From Thermodesulfobacteriota bacterium (GTDB lineage Bacteria; Desulfobacterota; QYQD01), in NCBI GenBank assembly GCA_031082315.1, contig JAVHLC010000011.1, positions 35,117 to 99,116 on the forward strand: a DNA stretch of 64,000 nt, in the 5' to 3' direction. A model generated the notes under the pieces. That model was not told where the DNA came from and ran no database searches. It saw only the letters and a list, made by a program, of their open reading frames with translations. The translations under genes and the position numbers were made by a program. The first letter of the stretch is position 1. Each line of letters starts with the position of its first letter. Shown piece after piece: positions 8,595 to 45,426 of the stretch.

Positions 8595-9130
8595 TTCCTG
8601 TCAGCATGAACATGCATAGCGAGCGCATTCCCCGTTGCTTGCCATCCAGGTCCGACACTGGCGGGCAGCGGGGTTAGCGAGCGAATACGATGCATTTTAC
8701 CTTGCATACGGAGATTCCCCGCAGCTTGCTGCGGGGGGGCTTCAACATGGCTTAACGATAATGAGACCTTCCGGGCGGGGGCCTTTTTGTCCGGCTGTTT
8801 ATAATGCATCCTGTAATCTTCAATGGCCAGCATGAGGCCAAAGGCGATGGCTAAGACCAGAAATATCTTGATGATCCGTGGCCAGGATGGCCTTGTCTTT
8901 TCGATCCAGACAAGGAGTCTAACCAGAAGCCGGGTAAAAATCGCAGCCAGGCCTGAAGACCAGAAAATCTTTATTCCGGTTTCGCACATAGAGCGGCCAA
9001 CGTCTCCGGGGTAATAACGCAGGGCGATGAAAAACCAGCCTAAGGCGCAAACGGCCACAATGATCTTATCCCGTGTAGTCCAGATAGGGTTAAGAGACTC
9101 AGATTTTGTTGCCACTATCCCGTCCTTCAA
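8582..9130 (-). CDS. Hypothetical small membrane protein; the 3' third of the ORF is encoded by an A-family repeat
   Basis: Two or three predicted TM helices in the first ~120 aa. Codons after about aa 128 fall inside the repeat at 8606..8745, so the C-terminus is probably an insertion artefact. Confidence 0.35.
   Translation of the reverse strand: MKDGIVATKSESLNPIWTTRDKIIVAVCALGWFFIALRYYPGDVGRSMCETGIKIFWSSGLAAIFTRLLVRLLVWIEKTRPSWPRIIKIFLVLAIAFGLMLAIEDYRMHYKQPDKKAPARKVSLSLSHVEAPPQQAAGNLRMQGKMHRIRSLTPLPASVGPGWQATGNALAMHVHADRKCSG
8606..8745. repeat. A-family hairpin repeat, copy A1 (long form with the nested ~70-bp insert)
   Basis: Shares the core gaacatgcatagcgagcg...aatacgatgcattttaccttgcatacggagattcccc-[palindrome]-ggg(g)agcttcaa with the copies at 24464, 41228 and 45116. 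The apical palindrome is ccccgcagc-ttg-ctgcgggg. Confidence 0.8.
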
Positions 9131-18989: not shown

Positions 18990-20085
18990 GGGGACGTCCA
19001 TAAATAAATAAATTGACACCAGATTAATATAATGCTATTTAACCGTTCATGCCAAGATTAGCCCGCCTGGATGCGCCCGGCGTATTACATCATGTTATTA
19101 TCCGAGGAATAGAGCGTCGAAACATATTTAAAGATAATAAAGATCGCGATAATTTTCTGGGGCGACTGGCTATCCTCCTGCCTGAAACCCAAACGGCCTG
19201 TTACGCATGGGCACTGTTGCCTAACCATGCCCATTTCCTGTTTCAAACCGGTAAGGTAGGTCTCTCCACTCTAATGCGAAGACTGCTTACCGGATATGCA
19301 GTCAGCTTTAACCGCAGGTACAATCGGCACGGGCAGCTTTTCCAAAACCGCTACAAATCGATTATCTGCCAGGAAGACGTTTACTTACAGGAATTGGTTC
19401 GCTATATACATTTAAATCCATTAAGGGCAGGGTTGGTTTCTGAACTGGGTGATCTTAACAAATATAAATACTGTGGACATAGCGTGTTGATGGGCAAGGT
19501 TAGGCGCCCATGGCAGGATACAAAATATGTACTGTCCTATTTTGGCAAGAATATTGGTGAGGCGAGAAGGAGTTACCTTTCCTATATAGAAGAAGCTCGG
19601 GATCAAGGCCGTCGGCCGGAACTGATGAGCGGGGGATTAATTCGAAGTCTTGGTGGGTGGGCAGAGGTAAAAAAGAGGCGGTTAAGAGGCCGGGATCGTG
19701 TTAAGGGAGATCAGCGCATATTGGGGGAGACCGATTTTGTAATGGAGATACTGGCGGAAGCTGATGAAAAGTATAATCGTTATTATGAACTGAAAAGCCT
19801 GGGATACGATTTAAAGACCGTGGAACGAAAAGTTAGTGAGATATACCGGATAGGACCGGAGGATATCTATAACAAAGGCCGGCAAAAGACGCGGGTAGAA
19901 GCCAGGAGTTTGTTTTGTTATTGGGCGGTGCGGGAACTAGGCTATGGGTTGACGGATTTGGCCAGACGTCTTGGTATGACCCAGCCAGCCGTGGGATATG
20001 CTGTAAGCCGGGGAGAGCGTATAGCCAAACAAAATAACCATCATCTGATTAAATGACTATTATTTACTTATTTATGGACGTCCCC
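18990..20085 (+). mobile_element. IS200-like / REP-associated tyrosine transposase (RAYT) element with 24-bp terminal inverted repeats
   Basis: The left end GGGGACGTCCATAAATAAATAAAT (18990-19013) and the reverse complement of the right end GGGGACGTCCATAAATAAGTAAAT (20062-20085) match at 23 of 24 positions. They enclose a single transposase gene. Confidence 0.7.
19049..20056 (+). CDS. Y1 (HuH) tyrosine transposase, IS200/RAYT family, with a C-terminal DnaA-C-like HTH extension
   Basis: 335 aa. Carries an HuH motif (PNHAHFLF) and the conserved Y-region. The C-terminal ~90 aa is HTH-like. Confidence 0.7.
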   Translation: MPRLARLDAPGVLHHVIIRGIERRNIFKDNKDRDNFLGRLAILLPETQTACYAWALLPNHAHFLFQTGKVGLSTLMRRLLTGYAVSFNRRYNRHGQLFQNRYKSIICQEDVYLQELVRYIHLNPLRAGLVSELGDLNKYKYCGHSVLMGKVRRPWQDTKYVLSYFGKNIGEARRSYLSYIEEARDQGRRPELMSGGLIRSLGGWAEVKKRRLRGRDRVKGDQRILGETDFVMEILAEADEKYNRYYELKSLGYDLKTVERKVSEIYRIGPEDIYNKGRQKTRVEARSLFCYWAVRELGYGLTDLARRLGMTQPAVGYAVSRGERIAKQNNHHLIK

Positions 20086-21443: not shown

Positions 21444-23135
21444 CTACTTCTGCGCCTTTTCTACCTTGGCCCAGGAATCACGTAAGGGCACGGTGCGGTT
21501 GAATACGAGTTTTTCATGAGAAGAGTCGGGGTCCACACAGAAATAGCCCTGCCGCTCGAACTGGTATCGACTGCCCGGTGCGGCATTGGCCAGGCTCGGC
21601 TCCACCCGGCATGACGTTAACGTCTCCAATGAATCAGGATTGAGATAGGTTTTAAAATCAGCCCCATCCTTATCCTCGCCTGGGGTTGCCTTTACAAAGA
21701 GATGGTCATATAAGCGCACCTCGGCCTCCAGCGCGTGGGCAGCCGAGACCCAGTGCAGCGTGGCCTTGACCTTGCGCCCGTCCGGAGAGTCCCCGCCCCG
21801 CGTCTCTGGGTCGTAGGTGCAGTGCAGTTCCACGACTTCTCCGGTCTGTTCATCTTTAACCACCCCCACACAGGTGATAAAGTACGCGTAACGCAACCGC
21901 ACCTCCCGGCCCGGGGCCAGACGGTAGAATTTTTTGGGTGGGTCTTCACGAAAGTCCTCTTGTTCAATATACAGCACGCGTGAAAAAGGGACCCTGCGTG
22001 ATCCCATGCCGGGATCCTCCGGGTTGTTCACGGCCTCCAGTTCTTCCACCCGGCCTTCCGGGTAGTTGTCAATGACCACCCGGAGTGGCCGCAATACCCC
22101 CATGACCCGCGGGGCGCGTTTGTTTAAATCTTCGCGGAGGCAGTGTTCGAGCAGGGCCATATCAACTATGCTATCCCTCTTGGCTACCCCGATGCGTTCA
22201 CAAAAGTCTTGGATGGACTCGGGCGTATAGCCGCGTCTCCGCAAGCCCGCCAGTGTAGGCATCCGAGGATCGTCCCAGCCGGTGACATAGCCCCCTTCCA
22301 CCAATTGCACGAGCTTTCGCTTACTGAGCACGGTGTAGCTGAGATTAAGGCGGGCAAACTCGATCTGCTGCGGGTGATGGACGCCTGATTGATCGAGGAA
22401 CCAGTCATAGAGCGGCCGATGGTCTTCAAATTCCAGAGTACAGATGGAATGGGTGATCCCCTCGATGGAATCCGAAAAACAGTGGGCAAAGTCGTACATC
22501 GGATAAATGCGCCACTTATCGCCGGTCCGGTGGTGTGCGGCCCGTAGAATACGGTACATGACCGGGTCCCGCATGTTTAAGTTGCCGGAGGCCATGTCGA
22601 TTTTGGCCCGAAGAACCCGGGAGCCGTCCTCGAATTCACCGGCCCGCATGCGCTCAAATAAATCCAGGTTTTCTTCGACCGGACGTGTTCGATACGGGCT
22701 GTCCTTGCCGGGCGCAGTCAAAGTACCCCGGTACTCCCGGATATCCTCTGGGCTCAGGTCGCAGACATACGCCTTGCCGGCCGTAATTAACTGCACGGCG
22801 TATCGGTAGAGTTGTTCAAAATAGTCTGAGGCGTAGAACAGCCGGTCACCCCAATCAAACCCCAGCCACCGGACGTCTGCCTTGATCGATTCTACGTATT
22901 CAACTTCCTCCTTGGTGGGATTGGTGTCATCGAAGCGCAGATTGCAAAGACCTTTGTATTCGGCGGCCAGACCGAAATTGAGGCAGATAGACTTAGCGTG
23001 TCCGATGTGCAGATAGCCGTTCGGCTCCGGCGGGAACCGGGTGTGGACCCGGCCCTGGTTCTTGTTGGCCTTCAGGTCTTCTTCGATGATATTACGGATA
23101 AAGTTGGATGTAGGCTTGGCATCAATAGTGGTCAT
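21444..23135 (-). CDS. glnS: Glutaminyl-tRNA synthetase
   Basis: 563 aa. Has HIGH (YLHIGHAKS) and MSK-type motifs, and a GlnRS-like anticodon-binding C-terminus. Confidence 0.8.
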
Positions 23136-23435: not shown

Positions 23436-24368
23436 ATGGGTATTCGCGAAAAACTTGGGTTAAGCAGTGACGAGCCATTGAGCATTAATTGGGACATCAC
23501 CCCGGCGGATACCTTCGGCATTTTCGAAAGCTGGGGCGGCAAGATACACGTCCGCAGCAACAAGGAACGGTACTACTATTTTTACATCGACGGCTGGAAA
23601 ACGCCTCCACAGCTTCTTCTGATGGAGCGCGGGGTGAAGCATGCCCGGATCCTGGCCCGGATCGACGCCCCCCAGGACATGGTCGACGCCTGCGTGGCCA
23701 GTCAGGGCAGAGGCGAAACCGACCGGAGTTATGCCATTGACGACGCCTTGCGAAGCTGGCTGCAGGCCAATGTCATTGAGGCCCACGATGCGTCAAAGGT
23801 GATCCCTCTGGAGAGCGAATTGGTGGAGGAGACACTGGAAACAGGCCTTCCGGGAAAAGACGAACCGCAGCCTGCAATCGAGCCGGTAACGCTGCGGTCT
23901 GAACCGGCCGTTATCAGCGAAGATGAGGTGCCGGACATCATACGCCGGAACGGGTTCTACGACAGCCACCACAATACGTCCGGGGGGTTTGCCAATCACC
24001 TCGTCGACAACGGCGACGGCCTCACGGTGACGGATTTGAAGACCGGCATCCAGTGGCAACGGGGCGGATGCGATATCGCCGCCATGCCCAGCATCCGGAG
24101 ATATGTGGCGGAATTGAATGGGCGGAATTTCGCCCGGTTCAATGACTGGCGGCTGCCGACCATGGAAGAGGCTTTATCGCTTATGGAGCCCGCGCCGAGC
24201 GGAAACGGTCTCCATCTGCATCCCTGTTTCTCCAAGTTGCAGCCTTTCATCATTCTGGCCGATCAGCGCAAACTGGGCGGCTACTGGTTCGTCGACTATA
24301 AGCAGGCCACCGTCTTCTGGGGGTCGGGCATACGGGGCGCCTTTGGCCGGGTCTGCCGGAGCCTGTAG
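23436..24368 (+). CDS. Hypothetical protein with a C-terminal DUF1566 (Lcl-C-like) domain
   Basis: 310 aa. The C-terminal ...NDWRLPTMEEALSL... matches the DUF1566 W-[RK]-LPT-x-EL signature. Confidence 0.5.
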   Translation: MGIREKLGLSSDEPLSINWDITPADTFGIFESWGGKIHVRSNKERYYYFYIDGWKTPPQLLLMERGVKHARILARIDAPQDMVDACVASQGRGETDRSYAIDDALRSWLQANVIEAHDASKVIPLESELVEETLETGLPGKDEPQPAIEPVTLRSEPAVISEDEVPDIIRRNGFYDSHHNTSGGFANHLVDNGDGLTVTDLKTGIQWQRGGCDIAAMPSIRRYVAELNGRNFARFNDWRLPTMEEALSLMEPAPSGNGLHLHPCFSKLQPFIILADQRKLGGYWFVDYKQATVFWGSGIRGAFGRVCRSL

Positions 24369-24382
24369 CCTGTTTAGGGCTA

Positions 24383-24460
24383 CCCCCGGTCATTTTTGTT
24401 TTTACCTGTATATTCAGCGCATACTTTCTGGTACAAATCTGGTCCAATACGAAAAAGCCA
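24383..24460 (+). pseudogene. 3'-terminal fragment of a BASS-family transporter gene, a paralog of the gene at 33941..34894
   Basis: About 78 nt at 24383-24460 align to 34785-34862 at roughly 80% identity. They encode VIFVFTCIFSAYFLVQIWSNTKKP against VVFVFICIFTASFLVQIWSNTKKP in the intact gene. The A2 repeat follows directly. Confidence 0.6.
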
Positions 24461-24463
24461 GGC

Positions 24464-24551
24464 TGAACATGCATAGCGAGCGAATACGATGCATTTTACC
24501 TTGCATACGGAGATTCCCCGTCCGCCCCAGGTGGACTGTGGGGAGCTTCAA
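24464..24551. repeat. A-family hairpin repeat, copy A2 (short form)
   Basis: Has the ctgaacatgcatagcgagcgaatacgatgcattttaccttgcatacggagattcccc-gtccgccccaggtggactgtgggg-agcttcaa core. Confidence 0.8.
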
Positions 24552-24586
24552 TTAGTACCGTCCCGCCTCTGACCACGAAAAATAGA

Positions 24587-24728
24587 CTTCTGGATTTTAT
24601 GCTATCGGCTTATCTAGTTGATATTTAAGGATAGTACCTTTTATTGTACTGTTTGCCAAATTGTAGTATCATCGCTTTTATATGCGAGTTTTGATGAAAA
24701 AAGTCGAGTCGATATAATATATAATGTT
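24587..24728 (+). repeat. C module copy 1: a ~140-bp duplicated AT-rich promoter-like segment
   Basis: About 88% identical to 45261..45400. Contains TTGATG-N16-TATAAT directly upstream of an RBS and the start of the protease gene. Confidence 0.75.
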
Positions 24729-24751
24729 CGGCCGGAAAGGAGATTCAGACG

Positions 24752-25471
24752 ATGGAATGGTCCCAGGCATTGGATGAGGTTCGCAAGTTCACATTCAAGA
24801 TCATTACCCCGCAAGGCTCCGGGACTGGATTCCTCATCACCCTTCGCGAACAAGGGGTCTGCGGTGTCGCCACGGCATACCACGTGATTGAACACGCCTT
24901 CTCGTGGGAGGAACCAATCAAACTGCTTCACACCTTCACAAACAGGACGATCCTCCTCCGAGTACCTGATCGGTATATCCTCCCAAATCCCACAAACGAC
25001 GCTGCGATCGTCATGTTCATGAAGGGCGATCTTGACGTCGACGGCAACCTGCTGACCCTCGCACCGGAAGACAAGTACCTTCGGCCAGGCAATGAAATAG
25101 CTTGGGCGGGCTACCCCGCAATCGCCCCTGACGAGTTTTCATTCTTCAACGGTCACGTCAGTTGTTACCTGAACTCGGCCAATGCCTATCTTGTTGATGG
25201 CGTAGCCATCAATGGTGTAAGCGGCGGGCCGACATTCACAATGATCGACAGCCAAGTTTATGTGATCGGAATTGTATCTGCCTACATTCCCAACAGGATC
25301 ACCGGCGAGAGCCTGCCGGGGGTGTGCTTCGTGACGGCCGTTAAGCCCTTCCACGAGTTCATGAAGGACATCGCCTCTCTTGAGCAGGCAAAAACGAAAG
25401 CAGAGATTGCCGAACCAAGCACTGCAAGCGACATGGTACCCGCGACTGCGCCGCGTGTCCCACGCGCCTGA
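24752..25471 (+). CDS. Trypsin-like (chymotrypsin-fold, S1) serine protease
   Basis: 239 aa. Has an N-terminal glycine loop (GSGTGFLI), a His in AYHVIEHA, an Asp region, and GVSGGP as a GDSGGP-type active-site Ser. Confidence 0.6.
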   Translation: MEWSQALDEVRKFTFKIITPQGSGTGFLITLREQGVCGVATAYHVIEHAFSWEEPIKLLHTFTNRTILLRVPDRYILPNPTNDAAIVMFMKGDLDVDGNLLTLAPEDKYLRPGNEIAWAGYPAIAPDEFSFFNGHVSCYLNSANAYLVDGVAINGVSGGPTFTMIDSQVYVIGIVSAYIPNRITGESLPGVCFVTAVKPFHEFMKDIASLEQAKTKAEIAEPSTASDMVPATAPRVPRA

Positions 25472-25503
25472 GTGCCGTCGTTGGGCTGCTGAGAGAGTCG
25501 AAC

Positions 25504-26385
25504 ATGAACACCATTGCCAAGCCACCCGTTTCTGGAGTCGTCCTCGGAATCGATGTAGGCTTTTCTGCGAAATCGGCGACGACGGGTCTTTGTCTGCTGA
25601 GTTGGGACACCAATTCTATGAAGATCTCGTTCGTACGCACACGGACAGGAAGTGTTGACCGGCGCAGGGATATACGTGCACTCGTCGGTAGCGCTCAATT
25701 GCTCGCTGTGGCGATTGACGGTCCCCTCGTTCGTGGCCTTCAGCGCATCTCGCACTATCGCGCAGCAGAGGCTCTTCTTTCTCGGAGTGTTCTCCAGAAG
25801 CGAGGCAAACCTGGTCAAACCAACTCGCCAGTTGGTCAGCAGTTACACGCTCACGCTACCGAACTGGCTGAAATCGTGCTCACTGAATGTGCAGTCGATG
25901 CAGCGGCGCACTACCAGGCGATTCACGAACGTTGTATCGTAGAAGCGTTCCCGAACATGTTCCTCGCCGCTGGCGTCCCTGAGGCAGAGCTTCCGAGTCT
26001 TCGCCGCAATGCATCCGATGCGTATTGGAGAGGTCTTGTGGTTCAGAGCGGGCGGTTACTTCAACTTATGGGCAGTCTCCTTCCTGGACGGAAACCTTCG
26101 TGCGAGCTTTGCACATTCATCAACCATGAAGACCGTGCCGCATTTGTTTGTGCGCTTTCCGCATTGTCAGTCTTATCACAACGGCACGTGGCTGTCGGCG
26201 ACCCATACGATGGCGATATTATCCTGCCACCACGGATTTGGTGGGGCAAAGCGTCAATTGGTACCAACCCGTGGATGGAAGTTGTCCTTCGCGACAACTT
26301 GGCTTCAGTCCGTCGTAGCAGGAATGGCAGTAAGCATCATGGCGACGCGCGCGTGGTTCTGCATGCCGGCGAATGGCAGCTGTAG
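25504..26385 (+). CDS. Hypothetical protein, possibly DUF429-like (RNase H-like fold)
   Basis: 293 aa. The N-terminal VLGIDVGFSAKSATTGLCLL resembles the DUF429 / RNase-H-like GIDxxW N-terminus. Co-oriented with the protease, 32 nt downstream. Confidence 0.35.
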   Translation: MNTIAKPPVSGVVLGIDVGFSAKSATTGLCLLSWDTNSMKISFVRTRTGSVDRRRDIRALVGSAQLLAVAIDGPLVRGLQRISHYRAAEALLSRSVLQKRGKPGQTNSPVGQQLHAHATELAEIVLTECAVDAAAHYQAIHERCIVEAFPNMFLAAGVPEAELPSLRRNASDAYWRGLVVQSGRLLQLMGSLLPGRKPSCELCTFINHEDRAAFVCALSALSVLSQRHVAVGDPYDGDIILPPRIWWGKASIGTNPWMEVVLRDNLASVRRSRNGSKHHGDARVVLHAGEWQL

Positions 26386-26416
26386 GAGTTACGTGGACTG
26401 GTTGGCCTAAGATATA

Positions 26417-26918
26417 ACGTTCATGCAGAACGTGCTTGACGAATTGTGAATAAGCAGGACATCCGCTTGGGGCGGACGGCAGTTACTCTATCTCCCGAAC
26501 CCCGGGGCTTCGTCATGTTATGCTGACTTGCCCGGATAGTTGGCTTTGTACGCCATTTACTCGCCACGTCCTGTGGCTCGCCCTTCGGGCCAGCAAATCT
26601 GTTCAAAATTGTTTATCCTGACGATTTTGTCTGTTCCCCGGATCAAGTCCGGGGCAGGCTTGACTCATAGCTTTGCAGTCCGGGTTACCGCTCCCTGCGG
26701 TCGCTCTCGCCGTTGGCTCGTGGTCTCCGCTACGCTCTGGACCCTTCAGACGGTCTCTCACGATTCCGCCCTTGCCTTCGGCTAGTACTTCTGCTAACGT
26801 ATCACTAAGTAGGCAGGGTTCACCCTGTTAAATTCCCCCCAGGGAACCCTATTTAACAGGGTAAACGTACAGGGGGGACTTACACCCCATAAGCTCACGC
26901 CCATGCCGGGCGTACACA
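26417..26918 (+). repeat. Large structured ORF-free element, copy 1 (~500 nt); candidate ncRNA or IS200/IS605-derived non-autonomous element
   Basis: About 90% identical to 28216..28694. Starts with the hairpin ACGTTC-atgca-GAACGT and ends with ACGCCC-atgcc-GGGCGT. Contains a perfect 16-bp stem GTTCACCCTGTTAAAT/ATTTAACAGGGTGAAC and many smaller palindromes. Carries an extra 29-nt hairpin insert (ccccggatcaagtccgggg...). Confidence 0.8.
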
Positions 26919-26987
26919 ATTCGTTCAAGAGGGACGCGGCATAAGGCCGCCGCGCCCCTTAGCTTTGGAGTTCGGGCCTAAAAGAAA

Positions 26988-27644
26988 ATGGACTTTTTCG
27001 ATCCTAAGTTAACATTTGATCCGCAGAAACCGTTCTATGGGCTGGTTGTGGCTTACGTTGCTCAGGTACATGGCCTCCTAGATTTGGTAAGCCGAGGGCT
27101 TCGAGAGGAATGGGAAAAGCTTAGAGGTAGACACCAAAACAGTCGGCTGTCCTCACTTGAAATGGAGAAAATGCTCAGTGACGGAATCAGGGAGGGATAC
27201 AGGGATCACATACAAGCGGTACTGCGCTCACAATCGGCACCGATTATCGGTGTCCAAAGGTTGGTCTCACGTTTGCGAGAAGGAGTAAAAGTAGATACAG
27301 TGCGTTTAGCAAATGAAATATTTTCGAAGCATCAATATCCGGTTGAAACCTATAACAAAATGACTGCGGGAGCCTTGCTAATTGTGTCTTGGGAAGTTAC
27401 AAAGTCCGACCATAGCCAAGATCCACTCTGGGAGTTCCACCGTCATTGCAGAAACGCTGCTGCTCATAATGGGAATTTCAACTTCCAGCACGGAGAGCCA
27501 AAACGACCTGCAAAGTGGGGAGCGCTTGAAATCGTACTTACCCTACAAGACACGCCAATTTTCCCAAATTCCTCTGGCAGAGGCTTTATTGGTCCTGGTG
27601 ATGTTTTGTATCTGCTGGCTGACATTGAAGCAAAATTCTATTAA
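26988..27644 (+). CDS. Hypothetical protein with a HEPN-like Rx4H motif (RNAAAH)
   Basis: 218 aa. The C-terminal ...FHRHCRNAAAHNGNF... fits the HEPN R-N-x3-H signature. No other family signature was seen. Confidence 0.4.
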   Translation: MDFFDPKLTFDPQKPFYGLVVAYVAQVHGLLDLVSRGLREEWEKLRGRHQNSRLSSLEMEKMLSDGIREGYRDHIQAVLRSQSAPIIGVQRLVSRLREGVKVDTVRLANEIFSKHQYPVETYNKMTAGALLIVSWEVTKSDHSQDPLWEFHRHCRNAAAHNGNFNFQHGEPKRPAKWGALEIVLTLQDTPIFPNSSGRGFIGPGDVLYLLADIEAKFY

Positions 27645-27877
27645 AGCCCGAACAAATCAATCCAGCCGGGCTGTGCTCTCGCGGAATAAAATCGTTCCCT
27701 CGCGCGCTGATTCGCGCGTCGGGAACAATCCGCTCGAGCAGACAGCCCAAGGGCCGCAGCTCAGATGGGCCGTTGGCTGAGAGGGAAAAAGATGGAACAG
27801 TATATCGGTTTGCTGATTTTCCTTGGACTTCTGGTCAGTTGCACATCCCCCGTGAACAAAAGGCGATCGGAGAAAGC

Positions 27878-28204
27878 AAGATGAACGTACTTCAGATTCG
27901 TTGGCAACGTCTCGTGGACGAACGGGGCCAAACATGTGATCGCTGTGGCGCAACCGAAACAGCGATAGAGGATGGGTTCCAAAAGCTAAGGCGTTCCCTG
28001 AAGGAACTGGACATAGACGTCGTTCTCGAGAAAACAGCTCTCAATCCTTCTACGTTTTCCAAGGATCCGCTCCAGTCAAATCGTATCTGGATTGCCGGAA
28101 AGCCGATCGAGCAGTGGCTCTCGGCCACCACTGGCCAGAGCCGATGTTGCTCCACATGCGGAGATTCGGAATGCAGAACTGTCACGGTTGATGGCAATAC
28201 CTAA
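27878..28204 (+). CDS. DUF2703-like small Cys-rich protein (start moved to the internal Met)
   Basis: MNVLQIRWQRLVDERGQTCDRCGATE...CCSTCGDSECRTVTVDGNT shows the paired CxxC pattern recalled for DUF2703. A GGAGA RBS precedes the Met at 27878. The listed ORF begins at 27773. Confidence 0.45.
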   Translation, partial: KMNVLQIRWQRLVDERGQTCDRCGATETAIEDGFQKLRRSLKELDIDVVLEKTALNPSTFSKDPLQSNRIWIAGKPIEQWLSATTGQSRCCSTCGDSECRTVTVDGNT

Positions 28205-28215
28205 GGACTGGCGGG

Positions 28216-28694
28216 ACGTTCATGCAGAACGTGCTTGACGAATTGTGAATAAGCAGGACATCCTCTTGAGGCGGACGGCAGTTACTCTATCTCCCGAACC
28301 CCGGAGCTTCGTCACGTTGTGCTGACTTGCCCGGAGACTGGGCCTGGTATGCCGTTTACTCGCCACGTCCTGTGGCTCGCCCTTCGGGCCAGCAAAGCTG
28401 TTCAAGATCGTTCATCCTGACGATTTTGTCTGTTCGTCGGCTCATAGCTTTGCGCTCCGGGTTACCGCTCCCTACGGTCGCTCTCGCCGTTGGCTCGTGG
28501 TCTCCGCTGCGCTTCGAACCCTTCGACGGTCTCTCACGATTCCGCCCTTGCCTTCGGCTGGTACTTCTGCTAACGTATCACTAACTAGGCAGGGTTCACC
28601 CTGTTAAATTCCCCCCAGGGAACCCTATTTAACAGGGTGAACGTACAGGGGGGACTTACACCCCTTAAGCTCACGCCCATGCCGGGCGTACACA
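28216..28694 (+). repeat. Large structured ORF-free element, copy 2 (~480 nt)
   Basis: See copy 1. Has the same terminal hairpins and the 16-bp stem but lacks the 29-nt insert. Confidence 0.8.
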
Positions 28695-28785
28695 ACTGCG
28701 TTCACGCGACCTCGTGACCTCGGCGCGTGACCCACATGTTATTATGCTTCTTGATAGTAAGAATTAAGAGGAGGGGAAATAGTAT

Positions 28786-29217
28786 ATGAATTGTTTTATA
28801 ATTATGCCCATTACAACTCCTGAAGAGCTGTTACCCCTCTACAATAATCCCAATCATTTTAAAAATGTGCTTGACTACCTACTCACACCTACGGTCAATG
28901 AAGCAGGAATGGAACCTATTCCACCTAGTTCTGAGGCTTCAGAAATTATTCATGCAGACATTATCTCAAAATTAATATCTGCTGCAATTGTCCTATGTGA
29001 TATATCAACACTTAATGCAAATGTCTTTTTCGAACTAGGAGTTCGTACCTCACTTAATAAGCCTGTTTGTTTGATTAAAGATGATCGCACAAATTCAATA
29101 CCTTTTGATACTGCTCCCATCCATTGCAAGACATATAGAAGCGGTCTGACAATTATGGACCATGCAGAAGATAAAAAAAAGAAATTAAACGCAAAAGGTA
29201 TTTGGAGTAAGCTATGA
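28786..29217 (+). CDS. Nucleoside 2-deoxyribosyltransferase-like (flavodoxin-like fold) protein, AT-rich gene
   Basis: 143 aa. CFIIMPI...AAIVLCDISTLNANVFFELGVRTSLNKPVCLI matches the Nuc_deoxyrib_tr layout, with the catalytic Glu in FELG. Local GC is clearly lower than its surroundings. Confidence 0.45.
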   Translation: MNCFIIMPITTPEELLPLYNNPNHFKNVLDYLLTPTVNEAGMEPIPPSSEASEIIHADIISKLISAAIVLCDISTLNANVFFELGVRTSLNKPVCLIKDDRTNSIPFDTAPIHCKTYRSGLTIMDHAEDKKKKLNAKGIWSKL

Positions 29218-29450
29218 AAAAATCAAAACAGGCTTTACCGGGATTTGTGGTTTGTATCAATAACATAGATTATCCGGCATCATTAGAACTCCATAAAATT
29301 TATCGTGTGCTTCCAGATGAAGATGCTGCTGCCGAAGGGGATATTCGAATTATTGATGAAAGTGGAGAGGATTATTTATACCCCTCTTCCTATTTCGTTC
29401 ACATCCAAGTTCCTCAAACGGTTGAAGAGTCATTACTTAGGGCGTCATAA
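29214..29450 (+). CDS. Small hypothetical protein, translationally coupled to the preceding gene (ATGA overlap)
   Basis: 78 aa in an AT-rich region. No recognisable motif. Confidence 0.35.
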   Translation: MKKSKQALPGFVVCINNIDYPASLELHKIYRVLPDEDAAAEGDIRIIDESGEDYLYPSSYFVHIQVPQTVEESLLRAS

Positions 29451-29566
29451 TTTAAGAACCCGTGCCGAACATCAGCTTGGAGAAGGATGCTCGTTCCGCT
29501 GCGCTTTGGCCCATAGAAAGGGCCGTTGACCGAAGTCTAACCAATTGTTTATAAAGGAGGCTAACA

Positions 29567-31075
29567 ATGAAGGAGGACAAAAAGAGGTTAACCACAGCTT
29601 TCGGTATCCCAGTGGCTGACGACCAGAACAGTCTCACCGCAGGTGAACGTGGGCCTATACTCATGCAGGATATTCATTTGCTGGAGAAACTGGCACACTT
29701 CGACCGTGAGCGTATTCCCGAACGAGTAGTGCACGCAAAAGGAGCGGGGGCGCACGGCTATTTTGAGGTTACTACTGATGTGACCAGGTACACCAAAGCG
29801 AGATTTCTTTCGAAAGTGGGCAAGAGTACCGAGGTCTTCGTACGGTTTTCCACTGTTGGTGGTGAGCGGGGTTCGGCCGATGCTGCACGAGATCCACGCG
29901 GCTTTGCAGTCAAATTCTACACGGAGGAAGGCAATTATGACTTAGTGGGGAACAATACACCCGTATTCTTTATCCGCGATCCGCTCAAGTTTCCTGATTT
30001 CATCCACACCCAAAAGCGGATCCCTGCGAACAATCTACCAGATCCGGACATGTTTTGGGACTTTTTATCCCTGACACCCGAATCCATTCATCAAGTTACA
30101 ATCCTTTTCTCCGACAGGGGAACACCAGGCGCCTATCGGCACATGAACGGCTATAGCAGCCACACGTTCAAGTGGTACAATGACAAGGGGGAATACTTCT
30201 GGGTACAGTACCATTTCAAAACGGATCAGGGCATCAAGAATCTGACCCGGGAGGAAGCGAAGAGAATGTGCGGCGAGGATCCGAATCACGCCACCCGTGA
30301 CCTGTATGAAGCTATCGAACGGGGAGACTATCCTTCCTGGACTCTTGAGATGCAGATTCTGACACCGGAGAAGGCCAAGGATTTTCCTTGGGATATCTTT
30401 GACATCACCAAAGTCTGGCCGCATGGAGAAGTCCCTCCTATCAAGATTGGAAAGCTGGTTCTGAACCGCAACCCGGTTAATTATTTTGCAGAAGTGGAAC
30501 AGGCGGCTTTCTGCCCGGGAAACGTGGTTCCCGGTATCGCCATCTCACCGGATAAGATGCTGCAAGCAAGGGTTTTTTCCTACCATGATACCCACCTTCA
30601 CAGACTTGGCCCCAACTATCACCTGATTCCAGTCAATGCGCCCAAATGTGCCCAGGAAAATAGTTACCAACGTGACGGATTCATGCGTGTTGACACCAAC
30701 GGAGGTGGTGGACCCAACTACTGGCCCAATAGCTTCGGTGGACCAGAGCCGGACCTGACGGCAGGCGAGCCTCCTTTTGAGGTTTCCGGCCAGGCTGGTC
30801 GTTACCCATTCACCTATCCAAATGACGACTTTGTGCAGGCTGGTACCCTTTACCGTAAAGTCATGTCAGACAAAGATCGGGAGCACCTTACCGGGAACAT
30901 TGTGGATCACCTGGCTAAGGCGCAGAAACGCATCCAAATGCGCCAAACCGCCTTGTTCTATAAGGCAGACGAGGAGTACGGCCGACGCGTAGCCGAAGGA
31001 TTAGGTCTCGATGTGAATGAAATCAAGCGATTGGCGGATATGTCTCATGAAGAAAGAGCGAAGGCTACAGAATAG
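29567..31075 (+). CDS. Monofunctional heme catalase
   Basis: 502 aa. Carries the catalase proximal signature [25 protein letters not shown], a distal His, and a heme-binding Tyr region. Confidence 0.85.
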
Positions 31076-31249: not shown

Positions 31250-32497
31250 CTAAAGGGTTCTCGCAAAACTGAGGGCGCTCCTCTGGATGCTGTACTGAAG
31301 CTGTGGCTGGATGAACTCAGTGGAATTTGCCGCAAAGGGGAAGTAGACCAACAGAAATTCCTCCGCCTGAATGTGAATTTCCCCGAGCCTGGGGAAAAGA
31401 CTTTTCTTGTCCATGGCGGTTTGCGCCAACACGACTTTCAGGCCGTCCGCGGCATCGCTCATGGGCAGTGTAATAGGGTATAGCTGGGACTTGGGGAGGT
31501 GTCTTTCGAGATTCTTCGTGGGCTGAGAAAGAGTCATTTGCCGGGCCAGCCTCAGGAAATGTGCGGGTTGAATCTTGAAAGCCGGAGACCAGAAGTAGAA
31601 GTCAAGATTATCCCATTCCTTCCTTATGGCCTTTGGCAGATTAGCAAGCCGCACCAGATCGGCATAGGATTGTAAGCTAAGCCCTTCCACCCTGGATTTT
31701 ATCCTCCAGAACGGCAAGTATATGGCGCTTTCAACATTTCCTTCATCGGAGACGACCCCGAAGTCTATCTTCCTCAGGTCTTGCCCGAAGATCCCCCACA
31801 CAGAATCACAATTGCTGCAATGGAGCGCCCAGCTTTCCCTCTCGCCCGCAAGAGTCCACCCGCAATTGGGACATAAGGTAGGAAGAAACTTTATCCTCCA
31901 AACCGGCCTCTCTTCAAAGGAGAAACGCTCATCGTCGGCCACATTCCCGGCATCCGTCGCAATGGGTCTATCGAGGATCGCGTCATAAATGACATTATTA
32001 TGAATAAAAATCGGGGAGTAAACCAGGCTTCCTACCTCACCGATGAACGCCCGGTGAAACTCGGTGCATGTCTGCGCCAGGTCATCAGCCAACATCTCCG
32101 GCCCGCTCACCCCTGAGAAGAACTGTGCGAATGAGAGATGCGGTCTTAGGAATCTTGCATCCTCCATAGCCTCGGCAAAGCTTAGTTTCAGGGCCTGCGG
32201 CCGGAGCCCGAGGGAGACGGGCAACGATGCGTCATTCAAGGCCAAAAGAGTGGTATCGACTACTCTCTGGCACACCCGGTATGGCTCACAGGAAAAAAGC
32301 ATGCCCCGGAAACGCCAGTACGGCACAAAAATGACATCCTTTCCGGACGATGGGGCAGGGGACAAACAGTATCTGAAATGACCCTGGGGGAGCAGGTATA
32401 ATTTCACCCGACAAAAAGAACAGGAGAAAATCCGGTCAGTCTCCTCCAGGGTAGCAGGGGCACCGCACTGCGGGCATTGGTGTGCGATTTTCAGCAA
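31250..32497 (-). CDS. Hypothetical protein with duplicated zinc-ribbon-containing domains
   Basis: 415 aa with an N-terminal CPQCG...CSFC and a second CPNCG...CSNC. Contains internally repeated (Y/F)xPFWR(F/I)K segments. Lies downstream of the SPFH gene in the same operon. Confidence 0.45.
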   Translation of the reverse strand: MLKIAHQCPQCGAPATLEETDRIFSCSFCRVKLYLLPQGHFRYCLSPAPSSGKDVIFVPYWRFRGMLFSCEPYRVCQRVVDTTLLALNDASLPVSLGLRPQALKLSFAEAMEDARFLRPHLSFAQFFSGVSGPEMLADDLAQTCTEFHRAFIGEVGSLVYSPIFIHNNVIYDAILDRPIATDAGNVADDERFSFEERPVWRIKFLPTLCPNCGWTLAGERESWALHCSNCDSVWGIFGQDLRKIDFGVVSDEGNVESAIYLPFWRIKSRVEGLSLQSYADLVRLANLPKAIRKEWDNLDFYFWSPAFKIQPAHFLRLARQMTLSQPTKNLERHLPKSQLYPITLPMSDAADGLKVVLAQTAMDKKSLFPRLGEIHIQAEEFLLVYFPFAANSTEFIQPQLQYSIQRSALSFARTL

Positions 32498-32510
32498 TTC
32501 TTAGGGCTTT

Positions 32511-33674
32511 CTAAAGTTTTTCACCGCACTGATTGCAGTAGATGGAATCGGGCAAATTTTCTGTCTCACAATGACGGCATTTCTGGGGGACAGGCTTTTC
32601 TTCCACCGACCTTCCACAGCGCGGGCAGAACCCGGCGTGGGGAGGCAGGTTTTTGCCGCACCCCGCACACTGCTGGAAAACGAGTAACTGGTGACCGCAG
32701 GAAGGACAGAATTTTGCGTCGCCGGCCACGGAGTTCCGGCAATCAGGACATCTAAAGGCATCCTGCTCCTTTGGGGCCTGTCCGTTTCTCAGAATATCCG
32801 CGAACATGCCTGGCATAATGAAACCGAGACCCATCCCCAGACCCGCTCCTGCCTCGCCTTGTGACGTCGCTGCGCTTTCCATCGCCATGGCCGCTTTCAT
32901 CTTTAACAGTTGGTTCAAGTCGTCGAACACGCCCAGCCGGCTTTTATCGTCTATGGCCTGTTGGACCTCCGGCGGCGGGGTAATAGAATTGATATAAAGG
33001 TCTGAAAGCCCAAGGCCGTAGTGGCTCAAATCCTGCTGCAAACGTCTTTTGAGCCCTTCCGATATGGAATCGTATTGTCCGGGCAGCTTAAGCATAGAAT
33101 CAAGATTCTCTCCCAGGTAATCATTAAAGCGTGAAACGATTACCCGGCTCAGATATTCTTCGATTTCTTCGGTGGTATAAATGTGCTGGGTTCCTACCAG
33201 GGTATTGATAAAAAGGACGGGCTGGATGACCCTGATATTAAAGACCCCGAAGGCCCGGAGGCGAATCAATCCCAACTCGGAATCCTTGAAGGCTACCGGA
33301 TCCCTTGTTCCCCACTTCAGGTTTGGAAAGACCTTCATGTTTACGAAATAGACCTCGGCCCTGAGCGGGCTGGTCAAACCCCAGGGCAGGCTTAGCACCT
33401 TGGTGATGATAGGAATATTACCGGTAGCAAGTGTATGCCGACCGGGCCGAAATGCATCGTAGGCCTTCCCGTTATAGAAGAAAACGGCGGATTGGCTCTC
33501 TCTTACAATGAGTTGGGCTCCATACTTTATTTCTCCGGAGCCCTTCTCGGGAATCCTGTGGACCATTGCCTTGCCGGTTTCGTCAAACCACTCAATAACC
33601 TCTAAAAATATAATGTTGTCTGTCCCCACAGTCGTAATCCTTTCCGTTGCCAGTCTTTTTCTTTCTTTCGTCAT
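32511..33674 (-). CDS. SPFH/band-7-like protein with C-terminal zinc-ribbon repeats (COG4260-like)
   Basis: 387 aa. The N-terminal SPFH-like core is followed by CPDCRN...CPSCG...CAGCG...CPRCG...CRHCE...CNQCG. Confidence 0.5.
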   Translation of the reverse strand: MTKERKRLATERITTVGTDNIIFLEVIEWFDETGKAMVHRIPEKGSGEIKYGAQLIVRESQSAVFFYNGKAYDAFRPGRHTLATGNIPIITKVLSLPWGLTSPLRAEVYFVNMKVFPNLKWGTRDPVAFKDSELGLIRLRAFGVFNIRVIQPVLFINTLVGTQHIYTTEEIEEYLSRVIVSRFNDYLGENLDSMLKLPGQYDSISEGLKRRLQQDLSHYGLGLSDLYINSITPPPEVQQAIDDKSRLGVFDDLNQLLKMKAAMAMESAATSQGEAGAGLGMGLGFIMPGMFADILRNGQAPKEQDAFRCPDCRNSVAGDAKFCPSCGHQLLVFQQCAGCGKNLPPHAGFCPRCGRSVEEKPVPQKCRHCETENLPDSIYCNQCGEKL

Positions 33675-33940: not shown

Positions 33941-34894
33941 TTGAATCGAATACTTAACATCTTCAATCGCCTGTTTGTCCTCTGGATTGTCCTGGCCGGC
34001 GTAGCCGCCTTCTATTTTCCGGCCGTCTTCATCCCATTGAAGAAACACATGGAGCTATTCTTTGCCATAACCATGTTCGGCATCGGAATGGTCTTAAAAC
34101 CCATAGACTTCGTGAATATCTTTAAAAACATCAAGGTAGTGGTTATTGGCACGGCTGCTCAATTTACGATCATGCCGCTATCGGCTTTTTTCGTTGCCAG
34201 GCTTTTTTCATTATCAAAAGAGTTTTCCCTGGGCCTGATTTTGACCGGATCGGCGCCGGGGGCCATGGCCAGTAACGTACTGAGCTATCTCGCCGGTGCC
34301 GATGTCGCCTATTCGGTATCGTTGACCACTGTATCCACCCTCCTAGCGCCGGTCCTTACCCCACTTTTAACCCTGCTCTTAGCCCATACCATACTGGAAA
34401 TCCCCTTTTGGGAGATGTTGGTCAGCGTTTTCAACATGGTGGTTATTCCACTTTTTTTGGGCATAACCGTAAAAGGCATTTTCTCTGGCAAAGTGGAGTA
34501 CCTGTCCAAAGTCTTCCCCGCAATTTCCACCACATTCATAGCCTTTATCTGCGCGCTGGTCGTAGCCCTTAACAAAGAATACCTTATGAAAGTAAACACC
34601 TGGATTTTTATGGCGGCGATTTTGTTGAATCTCTTGGGGCTGTTCTTGGGCTACATGACAGGAAAGACATTCGGTTTTGATATCCTGAAAAAACGGGCCT
34701 TATCCATTGAAGTCGGCATGCAAAATGCCGGTCTGGGCAGCGTGCTGGCCTTAAAACATTTTAATGAGAAAGTGGCCCTGCCCGCGGTCGTTTTTGTTTT
34801 TATCTGCATATTCACCGCCTCCTTTCTGGTGCAAATCTGGTCCAATACGAAAAAGCCAACTATTTCAGTCCCTTTATCTTTTGGACGTTTTTGA
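33941..34894 (+). CDS. Bile acid:sodium symporter (BASS) family transporter
   Basis: 317 aa with about 9-10 TM segments. Shows the BASS layout, including ...GLILTGSAPGAMASNVLSYLAGADVA... Confidence 0.7.
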   Translation: MNRILNIFNRLFVLWIVLAGVAAFYFPAVFIPLKKHMELFFAITMFGIGMVLKPIDFVNIFKNIKVVVIGTAAQFTIMPLSAFFVARLFSLSKEFSLGLILTGSAPGAMASNVLSYLAGADVAYSVSLTTVSTLLAPVLTPLLTLLLAHTILEIPFWEMLVSVFNMVVIPLFLGITVKGIFSGKVEYLSKVFPAISTTFIAFICALVVALNKEYLMKVNTWIFMAAILLNLLGLFLGYMTGKTFGFDILKKRALSIEVGMQNAGLGSVLALKHFNEKVALPAVVFVFICIFTASFLVQIWSNTKKPTISVPLSFGRF

Positions 34895-41227: not shown

Positions 41228-41375
41228 AACTGAACATGCATAGCGAGCGCATTCCCCGCTGCTTGCCATCCAGGTCCGACCCTGGCGGGCGGCGGGGTTA
41301 GCGAGCGAATACTATGCTTTTTACCTTACATACGGAGATTCCCTGTCCGCCGCAGGCGAACTGCGGGGAGCTTCA
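41228..41375. repeat. A-family hairpin repeat, copy A3 (long form) in the EF-G paralog 5' region
   Basis: Same core as A1, including the nested ~70-bp insert flanked by agcgagcg direct repeats. The apical palindrome is ccgcag-gcgaa-ctgcgg. Confidence 0.8.
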
Positions 41376-41555
41376 ATCTTTATTCACAAGTTTTTGCAAA
41401 ATATCGACTTAAAATTTTAAAGTCAAGCCTTAATTGTAATAGTTCACCGCAGAGTGCGCAGAGAACGCCTCTGCCTGCCCGCCTTGCCTTGGATGCTTGA
41501 GTCCGGTGATTAAGGTTTTTCTTTTTTGTGTCGATATAGTTGGCGTAGCTTGTTG

Positions 41556-45112: not shown

Positions 45113-45115
45113 GCT

Positions 45116-45174
45116 TGCCATGCATACGGAGATTCCCCGTCCGTCCTCCGCCTGCGGCGGACGGGAAGCTTCAA
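45116..45174. repeat. A-family hairpin repeat, copy A4 (3' core only)
   Basis: gcatacggagattcccc-gtccgtcctccgcctgcggcggacggg-aagcttcaa follows directly after the metallopeptidase stop. Confidence 0.7.
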
Positions 45175-45260
45175 ATTTTCCACTGTGCCGCCGCCAAATA
45201 ATAAATTGCCATAATTACGTCGAGTCGACATAACATCGATAATTACAATAAAAAGCAGAC

Positions 45261-45400
45261 CTCCGGATTTTATGCTATCGTCTTATGTAATTGATATTTA
45301 ATTGCATTTCATTTTATTGTACTGTTTGCCAAATTGTAGTATCATCGCTTTTATCTGCGAGTTTTGATGAAAAAATCGAGTCGATATAATATATAATGTT
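45261..45400 (+). repeat. C module copy 2 (duplicated promoter-like segment)
   Basis: About 88% identical to 24587..24728. Lies upstream of the 115-aa gene. Confidence 0.75.
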
Positions 45401-45426
45401 AAGTTTCTCAAGATAAGAGACCCATT

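What the first reader, a model, noticed from the sequence alone, without database searches (positions are those of the whole stretch)
24383..29460. Candidate accessory/defense islet: trypsin-like protease, DUF429-like, HEPN-motif, DUF2703-like and nucleoside-2-deoxyribosyltransferase-like genes inserted into a BASS-gene remnant
Starting at a 3' fragment of a BASS transporter paralog (24383-24460), the locus contains in order:
- an A-family hairpin repeat and a duplicated promoter module;
- a trypsin-fold serine protease (GVSGGP active-site motif) co-oriented with a DUF429/RNase-H-like candidate;
- the two large structured elements flanking a protein with a HEPN-type RNAAAH motif and a DUF2703-like Cys-rich protein;
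- a clearly AT-richer two-gene cassette whose first product has the Nuc_deoxyrib_tr / flavodoxin-like FELG architecture that recurs in antiphage effectors.

Mobile-element scars, predicted nuclease/protease/NDT-like domains, a compositional shift and a novel RNA-like element co-occur next to catalase. This is the profile of a horizontally acquired defense or toxin locus. None of the pairings matches a named system that I can recognise.
Basis: partly seen in the sequence, partly recalled or inferred. Interest (0 to 1): 0.65.

Follow-up and report, generated by a model that had tools for sequence, protein, structure and literature searches.

The report
Patchwork accessory region, not one system
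The 5-kb stretch between the glutaminyl-tRNA synthetase and catalase genes of this Thermodesulfobacteriota genome is a recombination-scarred collection of unrelated stand-alone accessory genes, gene fragments and two broken group II intron pieces. It is not a coherent new defence system.

Summary

- **Structured elements.** The two "large structured / novel RNA-like elements" are direct copies (89% identical) of the 5' part of a group II intron, mostly domain 1, on the minus strand. Both lack the reverse transcriptase and the catalytic domains 5 and 6.
- **No conserved pairings.**
  - 4 DUF429 homologues and 3 protease homologues in other genomes lack the other partner.
  - None of 80 loci with a HEPN-like gene has DUF2703 or the intron piece.
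  - The 78-aa ORF follows a different ~75-aa protein in 4 other contexts.
- **DUF2703** is a thioredoxin-fold protein found in metal and thiol contexts. The copy here lacks its last 20-30 residues, cut off at intron copy B.
- **NDT-like protein.** The nucleoside deoxyribosyltransferase (NDT)-like protein has an NDT/DNPH1 fold. It is a short form of a small family seen next to BREX and nuclease genes and in viral contigs.
- **HEPN-like protein.** It belongs to an uncharacterised family with a conserved R-N-x3-H motif and weak HEPN fold matches.
- **PADLOC** gives only partial or candidate hits.

Horizontal origin is plausible for the AT-rich cassette. Absence of the region from relatives could not be tested.

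The parts
24377..24466 (+). 3' fragment (about 28 codons plus stop) of a sodium/bile-acid symporter (SBF/BASS) gene, duplicated from or paralogous to the resident gene at 33941-34894
   Evidence: blastn gives 89% identity over 81 nt to 34778-34858. tblastn matches 22 of 28 residues. No other fragment is in the window.
24465..24560 (+).
   Evidence: Similar copies lie at 8607-8721, 41230-41377 and 45115-45165. The 18-nt core occurs 4 times on the same strand against 0.09 expected.
24578..24728 (+). Duplicated promoter-like module upstream of the protease gene, with TTGATG-16-TATAAT at 24691-24718
   Evidence: 89% identical to 45251-45400, which sits upstream of another small-ORF cluster.
24752..25471 (+). 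Stand-alone cytoplasmic trypsin-like serine protease, 239 aa
   Evidence: Trypsin_2 E=1e-5. PADLOC LmuA E=5.8e-14 (N-terminal domain only), RT-Protease_XI E=1e-8, Avs1b E=6e-4. The His44/Asp83/Ser157 triad is invariant. 1688 homologues were found. Homologue contexts vary and include a kdsA-kdsC operon and IMG/VR contigs.
25504..26385 (+). DUF429 family protein (predicted RNase H-like nuclease), 293 aa, full length
   Evidence: 100% identical to an NCBI 'DUF429 domain-containing protein' from a Thermodesulfobacteriota MAG. 773 homologues were found. PADLOC PDC-S44 E=1.6e-10. Asp17 and Asp72 are invariant. RNase H-like assignment comes from PMC3985635.
26417..26919 (-). Group II intron 5' fragment, copy A: domain 1 with lineage-specific insertions. 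It lacks the part matched by RF01998, the RT ORF and domains 5/6.
   Evidence: Rfam RF02001 scores 30.5 bits (E=0.002), model positions 59-145. The 5' end TTGTGTACGCCCGG is shared with a Methylocalor plasmid intron that carries RF02001, RF01998, RVT_1 and GIIM.
26988..27644 (+). Stand-alone HEPN-like protein, 218 aa, full length, from an uncharacterised family
27878..28204 (+). DUF2703 (thioredoxin-fold, CxxC) gene, truncated at its 3' end
   Evidence: Pfam E=3.7e-34, covering profile positions 1-106 of 120. Plasmid homologues are 128-137 aa and continue 20-30 residues beyond the window's stop. That stop lies 12 nt before intron copy B.
28216..28695 (-). Group II intron 5' fragment, copy B, with the same two ends as copy A
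   Evidence: Rfam RF02001 scores 35.1 bits, above the gathering score of 32. It is 89% identical to copy A over 512 aligned positions, with a 22-nt hairpin indel.
28786..29217 (+). NDT/DNPH1-fold protein, 143 aa, AT-rich, short form without the variable C-terminal tail
   Evidence: Nuc_deoxyrib_tr E=2.5e-5, below the cut-off. The family profile hits Rcl/DNPH1 at E=0.0016, aligning VFFELG to VGYELG. Foldseek top hits are NDT and DNPH1 at E=2.5e-5. phrog_3634 E=5e-19. The closest homologues (76% identity) are 243-249 aa.
29214..29450 (+). 78-aa ORF overlapping the NDT-like stop by 4 nt. It is a member of a small family that elsewhere follows a ~75-aa partner absent here.
   Evidence: Homologues in L106/L108, L192, L193 and a Thiodictyon plasmid each follow an 'HWYEAHGVG..FKIKR' protein. 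No trace of that partner is in the window.

Best explanation
The segment 24.4-29.5 kb is a variable, recombination-scarred accessory region assembled from at least three independent pieces. It is not a single functional system.

**Piece 1.** A bicistron encodes a cytoplasmic trypsin-like serine protease and a DUF429 RNase H-like protein. A promoter module upstream of it is copied elsewhere in the genome, and an 81-nt BASS gene scrap and a REP-like hairpin lie further upstream.

**Piece 2.** A stand-alone HEPN-like gene and a 3'-truncated DUF2703 thioredoxin-fold gene sit between two direct copies of a dead group II intron 5' fragment. Recombination involving that intron sequence most likely brought them in and cut off the DUF2703 end.

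**Piece 3.** A recently acquired AT-rich cassette holds a short NDT/DNPH1-fold protein and a 78-aa ORF that has lost its usual partner.

The intact genes are solitary members of widespread, patchily distributed families. If they act in conflict, they act singly, by these routes:
- protease: proteolysis;
- DUF429 protein: nucleic-acid cleavage;
- HEPN-like protein: RNA cleavage through the R-N-x3-H site;
- NDT-like protein: N-glycosidic cleavage of nucleotides through the FELG glutamate.

The anatomy, homologies and lack of conserved pairing are shown by tool results. The order of events, the recombination mechanism and all biochemical activities are inferred.
For: **Mosaic structure and repeats.**

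**Intron identity of the big repeats.** The RF02001 hits lie on the minus strand. An E<=1 Rfam scan of 24000-29600 gave no hit for domains 5/6. The repeats are homologous to a complete intron carrying RVT_1 and GIIM.

**No conserved partners.**
- DUF429 homologues at 74%, 54%, 46% and 48% identity lie in four unrelated contexts without the protease.
- Protease homologues at 66%, 56% and 51% identity lie without DUF429.
- 80 loci with the HEPN-like gene contain no DUF2703 and no intron piece. No neighbour family occurs in more than 3 loci. Neighbours range from DHDPS and NusG/L11 to MTase II and SduA.
- The 78-aa ORF normally follows a different 75-aa protein.

**Other points.**
- DUF2703 is truncated exactly at intron copy B.
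- The cassette is about 3 SD below the window's GC.
- PADLOC gives only partial-domain or candidate single-gene hits.
Against: - The protease and DUF429 genes are 32 nt apart, co-oriented and behind one promoter-like site. The identical pair is also on an independent Logan contig, so a lineage-specific functional pair is not excluded. Only 7 homologue contexts were sampled.
- Four of the six products have defence-type domain signatures. NDT-like homologues sit next to BREX PglZ/BrxL, DUF6602 and REase-ARP genes. A defence-island reading of the individual genes therefore remains open.
- The two intron fragments share both ends, which simple decay does not explain.
- No close relative was available to show that the region is variable.
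Confidence: 0.6

Rival explanations
1. The region is a small defence island. Each intact gene (protease, DUF429/PDC-S44-like, HEPN-like, NDT-like) is an independent single-gene anti-phage or abortive-infection effector acquired horizontally. The scars are the normal debris of such hotspots.
For: - PADLOC hits: LmuA N-terminal domain E=5.8e-14, RT-Protease_XI, Avs1b, PDC-S44 E=1.6e-10, TIR-type effector E=3.8e-6.
- NDT-like relatives lie next to BREX and nuclease genes and in 10 IMG/VR contigs. phrog_3634 E=5e-19.
- Protease relatives occur in 5 IMG/VR contigs.
- Some neighbours of the HEPN-like gene are TIR, SduA, MTase II or PDC-S45.
- The cassette has AT-rich composition.
Against: - All PADLOC hits are to single domains or untested candidates, and no complete system is called.
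- Protease, DUF429 and HEPN-like homologues also sit in plain housekeeping contexts: kdsA-kdsC, ruvB-mutase, DHDPS, NusG/L11.
- DUF429 family contexts were reported as conserved and non-mobile (PMC3985635).
- No DUF429 relative was found in viral contigs.
- DUF2703 is not defence-related and is broken.
Confidence: 0.25
2. The protease and the DUF429 nuclease form a lineage-specific two-gene system, for example a protease that activates or restrains the nuclease, expressed from the duplicated promoter module.
For: The intergenic gap is 32 nt, the genes share a strand, and a single promoter-like site lies upstream. The identical pair is on an independent 1.85-kb Logan contig.
Against: None of 7 homologue contexts keeps the pair. 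Both families are mostly solitary genes, with 773 and 1688 homologues respectively.
Confidence: 0.08
3. The two 500-nt intron-derived elements are not debris. They are a non-autonomous mobile mini-element, or a functional antisense or insulating RNA that brackets the HEPN-like cassette.
For: - Both copies share the natural intron 5' end, each next to a different stem-loop, and the same internal 3' end.
- They are 89% identical, with one indel that removes a whole hairpin.
Against: - Neither copy has a domain 5/6 or an RT, so self-splicing or retromobility in cis is not possible by known chemistry.
- Only two copies are seen.
- The upstream stem-loops are not significantly more stable than shuffles (z -1.2 and -1.8).
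- One copy cuts a gene, which is typical of debris.
Confidence: 0.07

Closest known systems
Bacterial group II introns; the window's 5' end resembles attC-inserting and other plasmid-borne copies, possibly class C
   Same: - RF02001 (group-II-D1D4-3) hits on both repeats.
- A 5' end GTGTACGCCCGGCATGGG that is 87% identical over about 46 nt to sequences on many plasmids.
- Alignable to a complete Methylocalor intron with RT and maturase.
- Each copy lies about 10 nt downstream of a stem-loop.
   Different: Only the 5' part is present. The D2-D4 segment matched by RF01998, the RT ORF and domains 5/6 are all missing. Both copies are broken at the same point and carry about 190 nt of extra insertions in domain 1.
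Stand-alone HEPN ribonuclease toxins (HEPN-MNT toxins, RnlA/LsoA, Las1; Pfam HEPN pEK499_p136)
   Different: - No Pfam or PDB sequence match for the window protein.
- No MNT or other antitoxin neighbour.
- About 100 extra N-terminal residues of unknown role.
Nucleoside 2-deoxyribosyltransferase / DNPH1 (Rcl) N-glycosidases and the NDT/TIR-like effector domains of defence systems
   Same: Fold match at Foldseek E=2.5e-5 with probability 1.0. The catalytic-Glu motif FELG aligns to YELG of Rcl. D72, N77, N79 and E83 are invariant. PADLOC TIR-type effector hit E=3.8e-6.
   Different: - Below Pfam's gathering score (24.8 against 28.8 bits).
- A separate small family of 59 proteins.
- The window copy lacks the C-terminal tail (HhH or zinc ribbon) present in its closest relatives.
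- No sensor partner.
Lamassu LmuA (protease type), Avs1b, and RT-Protease class XI effectors
   Same: The trypsin-like domain of the 239-aa protein matches the protease domains of these effectors: LmuA E=5.8e-14, RT-Protease_XI E=1.2e-8, Avs1b E=6e-4.
   Different: Only the protease domain is shared (LmuA profile positions 4-185 of 425). No LmuB/SMC, RT or STAND NTPase is present in the region.
PADLOC phage-defence candidate PDC-S44 (single-gene candidate) / DUF429 RNase H-like family
   Same: PDC-S44 hit at E=1.6e-10 over the N-terminal half. NCBI names the identical protein DUF429. The RNase H-like Asp residues are conserved.
   Different: The match covers only profile positions 9-141 of 259. 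PDC-S44 is a computational candidate, not a tested system. Pfam DUF429 does not reach threshold on the window protein.

Membership tests
Group II intron (functional, mobile) | Domain 1 with the conserved 5' end | tested here: met
   RF02001 hits score 35.1 and 30.5 bits. The 5' end aligns with a complete intron.
Group II intron (functional, mobile) | Catalytic domain 5 and branch-point domain 6 | tested here: not met
   An Rfam scan of 24000-29600 at E<=1 gave no Intron_gpII hit. The repeats end about 60 nt after the RF02001 match.
Group II intron (functional, mobile) | Intron-encoded reverse transcriptase/maturase in domain 4 | tested here: not met
   No minus-strand ORF of 50 aa or more runs on beyond either copy; the only ones there (26421-26606 and 28220-28405, 61 aa each) lie wholly inside the repeats. 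The Methylocalor relative has RVT_1 and GIIM at that place.
HEPN superfamily | R-x4-6-H motif, usually with a polar residue after the Arg, conserved across the family | tested here: met
   R155, N156 and H160 are each at least 90% conserved in 77 sequences.
HEPN superfamily | Four-helix up-down bundle fold similar to solved HEPN domains | tested here: inconclusive
HEPN superfamily | RNase activity dependent on the motif | not testable with these tools
   Needs biochemistry.
HEPN-MNT type toxin-antitoxin | Adjacent minimal nucleotidyltransferase antitoxin | tested here: not met
   The neighbours are an intron fragment and DUF2703. No recurrent neighbour appears in 80 loci.
Nucleoside 2-deoxyribosyltransferase / DNPH1 superfamily | Flavodoxin-like fold with the catalytic Glu in an (F/Y)E(L/I)G motif | tested here: met
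   Foldseek E=2.5e-5 to NDT and DNPH1. The profile alignment places FELG on YELG. E83 is invariant.
Nucleoside 2-deoxyribosyltransferase / DNPH1 superfamily | Pfam PF05014 at or above the gathering score | tested here: not met
   24.8 bits against a cut-off of 28.8.
Lamassu | LmuB SMC-like ATPase next to an LmuA effector | tested here: not met
   Only the protease domain of LmuA matches. No SMC gene is in 23-31 kb.
DUF2703 (thioredoxin-like clan) | Full-length domain with CxxC motifs | tested here: inconclusive
   E=3.7e-34 and the Cys motifs are present, but the last 20-30 residues seen in homologues are missing.
Trypsin-like (PA clan) serine protease | His-Asp-Ser triad in order, with a GxSGGP motif | tested here: met
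   H44, D83 and S157 are invariant in 27 sequences. Profile hits to DegP-type and Jep proteases reach E=1.5e-3.
   The protein is 239 aa with no PDZ in Pfam. The N-terminus MEWSQALDEVRKF has no hydrophobic signal (read from the sequence).

The most novel reading that the evidence does not exclude
The 218-aa HEPN-like protein represents an undescribed family of solitary HEPN RNases with a new N-terminal regulatory module. The family has about 360 clusters at 50% identity, a very confident predicted fold, and no Pfam or PDB sequence match. It would act as a one-gene abortive-infection or stress toxin. In addition, the 500-nt domain-1-only intron pieces, which share both ends, could be a non-autonomous intron derivative that mobilised or captured the cassette.
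Probability: 0.12. Interest if true: 0.6.

Novelty: new member of a known kind. Interest (0 to 1): 0.25.

Why it matters
As found, it matters little. The region shows how accessory genes, gene scraps and dead introns accumulate between core genes in an uncultured sulfate-reducer lineage.

The case also carries a caution: a cluster of defence-flavoured domains is not a system unless the pairings recur.

Three by-products could be worth separate study:
- an uncharacterised, widespread solitary HEPN-like family;
- a small NDT-fold family repeatedly found beside BREX and nuclease genes;
- a conserved 75-aa + 78-aa two-gene module of unknown function.

Tried and rejected
- **GlnRS synteny scan.** A genome-contig scan with GlnRS returned 80 loci, the best at 83% identity. 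None carries any islet gene, so presence or absence in relatives could not be tested.
- **Exact-sequence look-ups.** The DUF429 protein was found only on a 1.85-kb Logan contig. The HEPN-like protein is not on record.
- **'Novel structured RNA'.** Rejected after the Rfam hits and the alignment to a complete intron.
- **Complete ORF-less mini-intron.** Rejected because no domain 5/6 is present and the repeats end soon after the domain 1 match.
- **Hairpin repeat as intron domain 5.** It shares CCGTCCGCC with the intron pieces, but Rfam gave no hit and the helix geometry does not fit. I treat the shared motif as chance or unresolved.
- **NDT-like gene as a pseudogene.** Not upheld. Other family members (P0418, P0421) end at the same point after the LW motif.
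- **Remnant of the 75-aa partner of the 78-aa ORF.** None found.
- **Other negative searches.**
  - Foldseek against PDB for the HEPN-like model found nothing.
  - The HEPN-like profile against PDB sequences found nothing.
  - The DUF429 profile against PDB sequences found nothing.
  - No DUF429 relative is in IMG/VR.
  - The 25-mer at the intron 5' end is absent from IMG/VR.

Full report
**Source and layout**

The protease and DUF429 proteins are 100% identical to NCBI entries from a Thermodesulfobacteriota MAG, on a 99-kb contig. The finding lies between glutaminyl-tRNA synthetase (21444-23135, minus strand) and catalase (29567-31075; Pfam E=8e-200). A DVU0772/Lcl_C-domain gene at 23436-24368 sits just before it. 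All islet genes are on the plus strand.

**Checking the observation**

Each item is real.

- **BASS fragment.** 24380-24460 is 89% identical in DNA to 34778-34858, the 3' end of the resident SBF/BASS gene. It encodes 22 of 28 matching residues followed by a stop. No other piece of that gene exists in the window.
- **Hairpin repeat.** It follows directly at 24474-24552 and recurs at about 8.7, 41.3 and 45.1 kb. The core occurs 4 times on the same strand, against 0.09 expected.
- **Promoter module.** The 150-nt module at 24578-24728 is 89% identical to 45251-45400. It carries TTGATG-16-TATAAT and lies just upstream of the protease start. The second copy precedes another cluster of small unannotated ORFs.
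- **Direct repeats.** Two repeats of about 500 nt (26417-26919 and 28216-28695) are 89% identical over 512 aligned positions. They bracket the HEPN-like and DUF2703 genes.
- **AT-rich cassette.** The last two ORFs have GC 0.36-0.38 and GC3 0.26-0.28. The window averages 0.505 with SD 0.049.

**The 'large structured elements'**

Rfam places both repeats in group-II-D1D4-3 on the minus strand. Copy B scores 35.1 bits, above the gathering score; copy A scores 30.5 bits. A permissive scan of the region finds no domain 5/6 model.

The first 46 nt (GTGTACGCCCGGCATGGG...) are 87% identical to sequences on many plasmids. The repeats also align with a Methylocalor plasmid element that has RF02001, then RF01998, then ORFs with RVT_1 (E=8e-40) and the group II maturase domain.

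Compared with that intron, the window copies have extra insertions in domain 1. They stop about 60 nt after the RF02001 match. The segment matched by RF01998, the reverse transcriptase and domains 5/6 are all missing. They are therefore dead 5' fragments of a group II intron, antisense to the flanking genes, and not a new RNA class.

One oddity remains. Both copies begin at the natural intron 5' end, each next to a different stem-loop; these are weak, with z of -1.2 and -1.8. Both copies also end at the same internal position. Independent insertion does not explain the shared 3' break, and simple duplication does not explain the different 5' flanks. Gene conversion, Campbell-type integration of a circle carrying a copy, or a non-autonomous derivative are all possible. 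I could not test these.

**The genes one by one**

*Protease (239 aa).* Trypsin_2 E=1e-5. His44, Asp83 and Ser157 are invariant in 27 homologues. There is no PDZ domain and no signal sequence. Its domain resembles the protease domains of LmuA (E=6e-14; first 185 of 425 profile positions), RT-Protease XI and Avs1b. The family is large, with 1688 hits.

*DUF429 protein (293 aa).* It is full length, belongs to a family of 773 hits, and matches the N-terminal half of the PADLOC candidate PDC-S44 (E=1.6e-10). DUF429 was assigned to the RNase H-like superfamily, as mostly single-domain proteins with contexts conserved among close relatives (PMC3985635).

*DUF2703.* The Pfam match is strong (E=3.7e-34). 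The family is thioredoxin-fold and ArsD-related, and was reported in arsenic operons (PMC3091736, PMC6514093). Plasmid homologues lie beside P-type ATPase/CzcA genes or permease-thioredoxin-rhodanese genes. They are 128-137 aa long. The window copy stops 20-30 residues early, 12 nt before intron copy B. It is a truncated redox or metal-homeostasis gene, not a defence gene.

*NDT-like protein (143 aa).* It is below Pfam's cut-off. Its family profile hits Rcl/DNPH1 (E=0.0016) with FELG on the catalytic YELG. Its model matches NDT and DNPH1 structures at E=2.5e-5. The family is small, with 59 hits. The closest members (76% identity) are 243-249 aa and carry an extra C-terminal tail, but other members end where the window protein ends. 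Relatives lie after BREX PglZ/BrxL, near DUF6602 and REase-ARP genes, and in 10 IMG/VR contigs. phrog_3634 matches at E=5e-19.

*78-aa ORF.* In four other contexts its homologues follow a ~75-aa 'HWYEAHGVG..FKIKR' protein. That protein is absent from the window.

**Are the pairings real?**

- Four DUF429 homologues (74%, 54%, 46% and 48% identity) sit in unrelated neighbourhoods without the protease. One lies between ruvB and methylmalonyl-CoA mutase.
- Three protease homologues (66%, 56% and 51% identity) lack DUF429. One is inside a kdsA-kdsC-lptC operon and one is in a ParB-containing IMG/VR contig.
- Among 80 metagenomic loci with the HEPN-like gene, none has DUF2703 or the intron piece, and no neighbour family recurs in more than three loci. 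The 135 nearest neighbours are a mix of housekeeping genes (DHDPS, NusG/L11, semialdehyde dehydrogenase) and occasional defence-type genes (MTase II, SduA, PDC-S45, HNH effectors, TIR).

The juxtapositions in the window therefore look local and accidental. The exception may be the protease-DUF429 bicistron, which is also present, identical, on one independent short contig.

**Most likely explanation**

The region is a variable accessory segment built from separate pieces and scarred by recombination. The scars are a gene scrap, a REP-like hairpin, a copied promoter, two dead intron fragments, a truncated DUF2703 and an ORF without its usual partner.

The intact genes are solitary members of patchily distributed families. 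Their predicted chemistries are proteolysis, RNase H-like nucleic-acid cleavage, HEPN-type RNA cleavage and N-glycosidic cleavage of nucleotides. These are inferred from conserved catalytic residues, not shown.

A 'defence island of single-gene effectors' remains a reasonable minority view. A single multi-gene system is not supported. Horizontal origin is well supported only for the AT-rich cassette.

**What could not be done**

- No genome close enough for synteny was found; the best GlnRS was 83% identical, with no shared neighbours. Whether the segment is absent in relatives is therefore unknown.
- The context samples for the protease and DUF429 families are small (7 look-ups).
- Activities, transcription and any phenotype are untested.

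**Verdict**

The locus is ordinary as a whole. Its components are new members of known kinds. The uncharacterised HEPN-like family and the shared-ended intron fragments are the only mildly unusual items.

Noticed in passing
window 19049-20056 (+): A 335-aa protein combines an IS200-like Y1 transposase domain with a DnaA C-terminal HTH. It may be a REP-associated tyrosine transposase that mobilises the hairpin repeat seen 4 times in the window.
   Followed up: no
window 45115-46924: A second copy of the hairpin plus promoter module (45115-45400) precedes a cluster of small unannotated ORFs: 45427-45774, 45849-46232 and 46340-46924. This looks like another accessory islet using the same promoter cassette.
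   Followed up: partly
L106 3505-3967; L192 2277-2749; L193 2046-2734; L199 2242-2722: A conserved two-gene module of unknown function: a ~75-aa 'HWYEAHGVG..FKIKR' protein followed by the 78-aa 'VIDESGEDYLYP' protein. It has no Pfam hit. In the Thiodictyon plasmid it lies next to a group II intron maturase fragment.
   Followed up: partly
L089 6001-7801 (same contig as IMG/VR locus L200): The 66%-identical protease homologue is immediately followed by a 316-aa protein with a weak Nuc_deoxyrib_tr hit (E=6.7e-5). This NDT-like family differs from the one in the window.
   Followed up: no
L105, L152, L170: TIR-like proteins (MSKVNVFISYARKDYE...) lie within 3 kb of the HEPN-like gene in three loci. 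One other locus has a strong PDC-S45 neighbour (E=2e-92).
   Followed up: partly
window 26417-26919 vs 28216-28695: The two intron fragments share both their natural 5' end and an identical internal 3' break. They differ by a 22-nt indel that removes one complete hairpin (CCCCGGACTTGATCCGGGG). The origin of the shared 3' break is unexplained.
   Followed up: partly
window 31250-33674 (-): Downstream of catalase lies an SPFH/Band-7 protein with double zinc ribbons (387 aa), followed by a 415-aa zinc-ribbon-rich protein with no Pfam hit.
   Followed up: no
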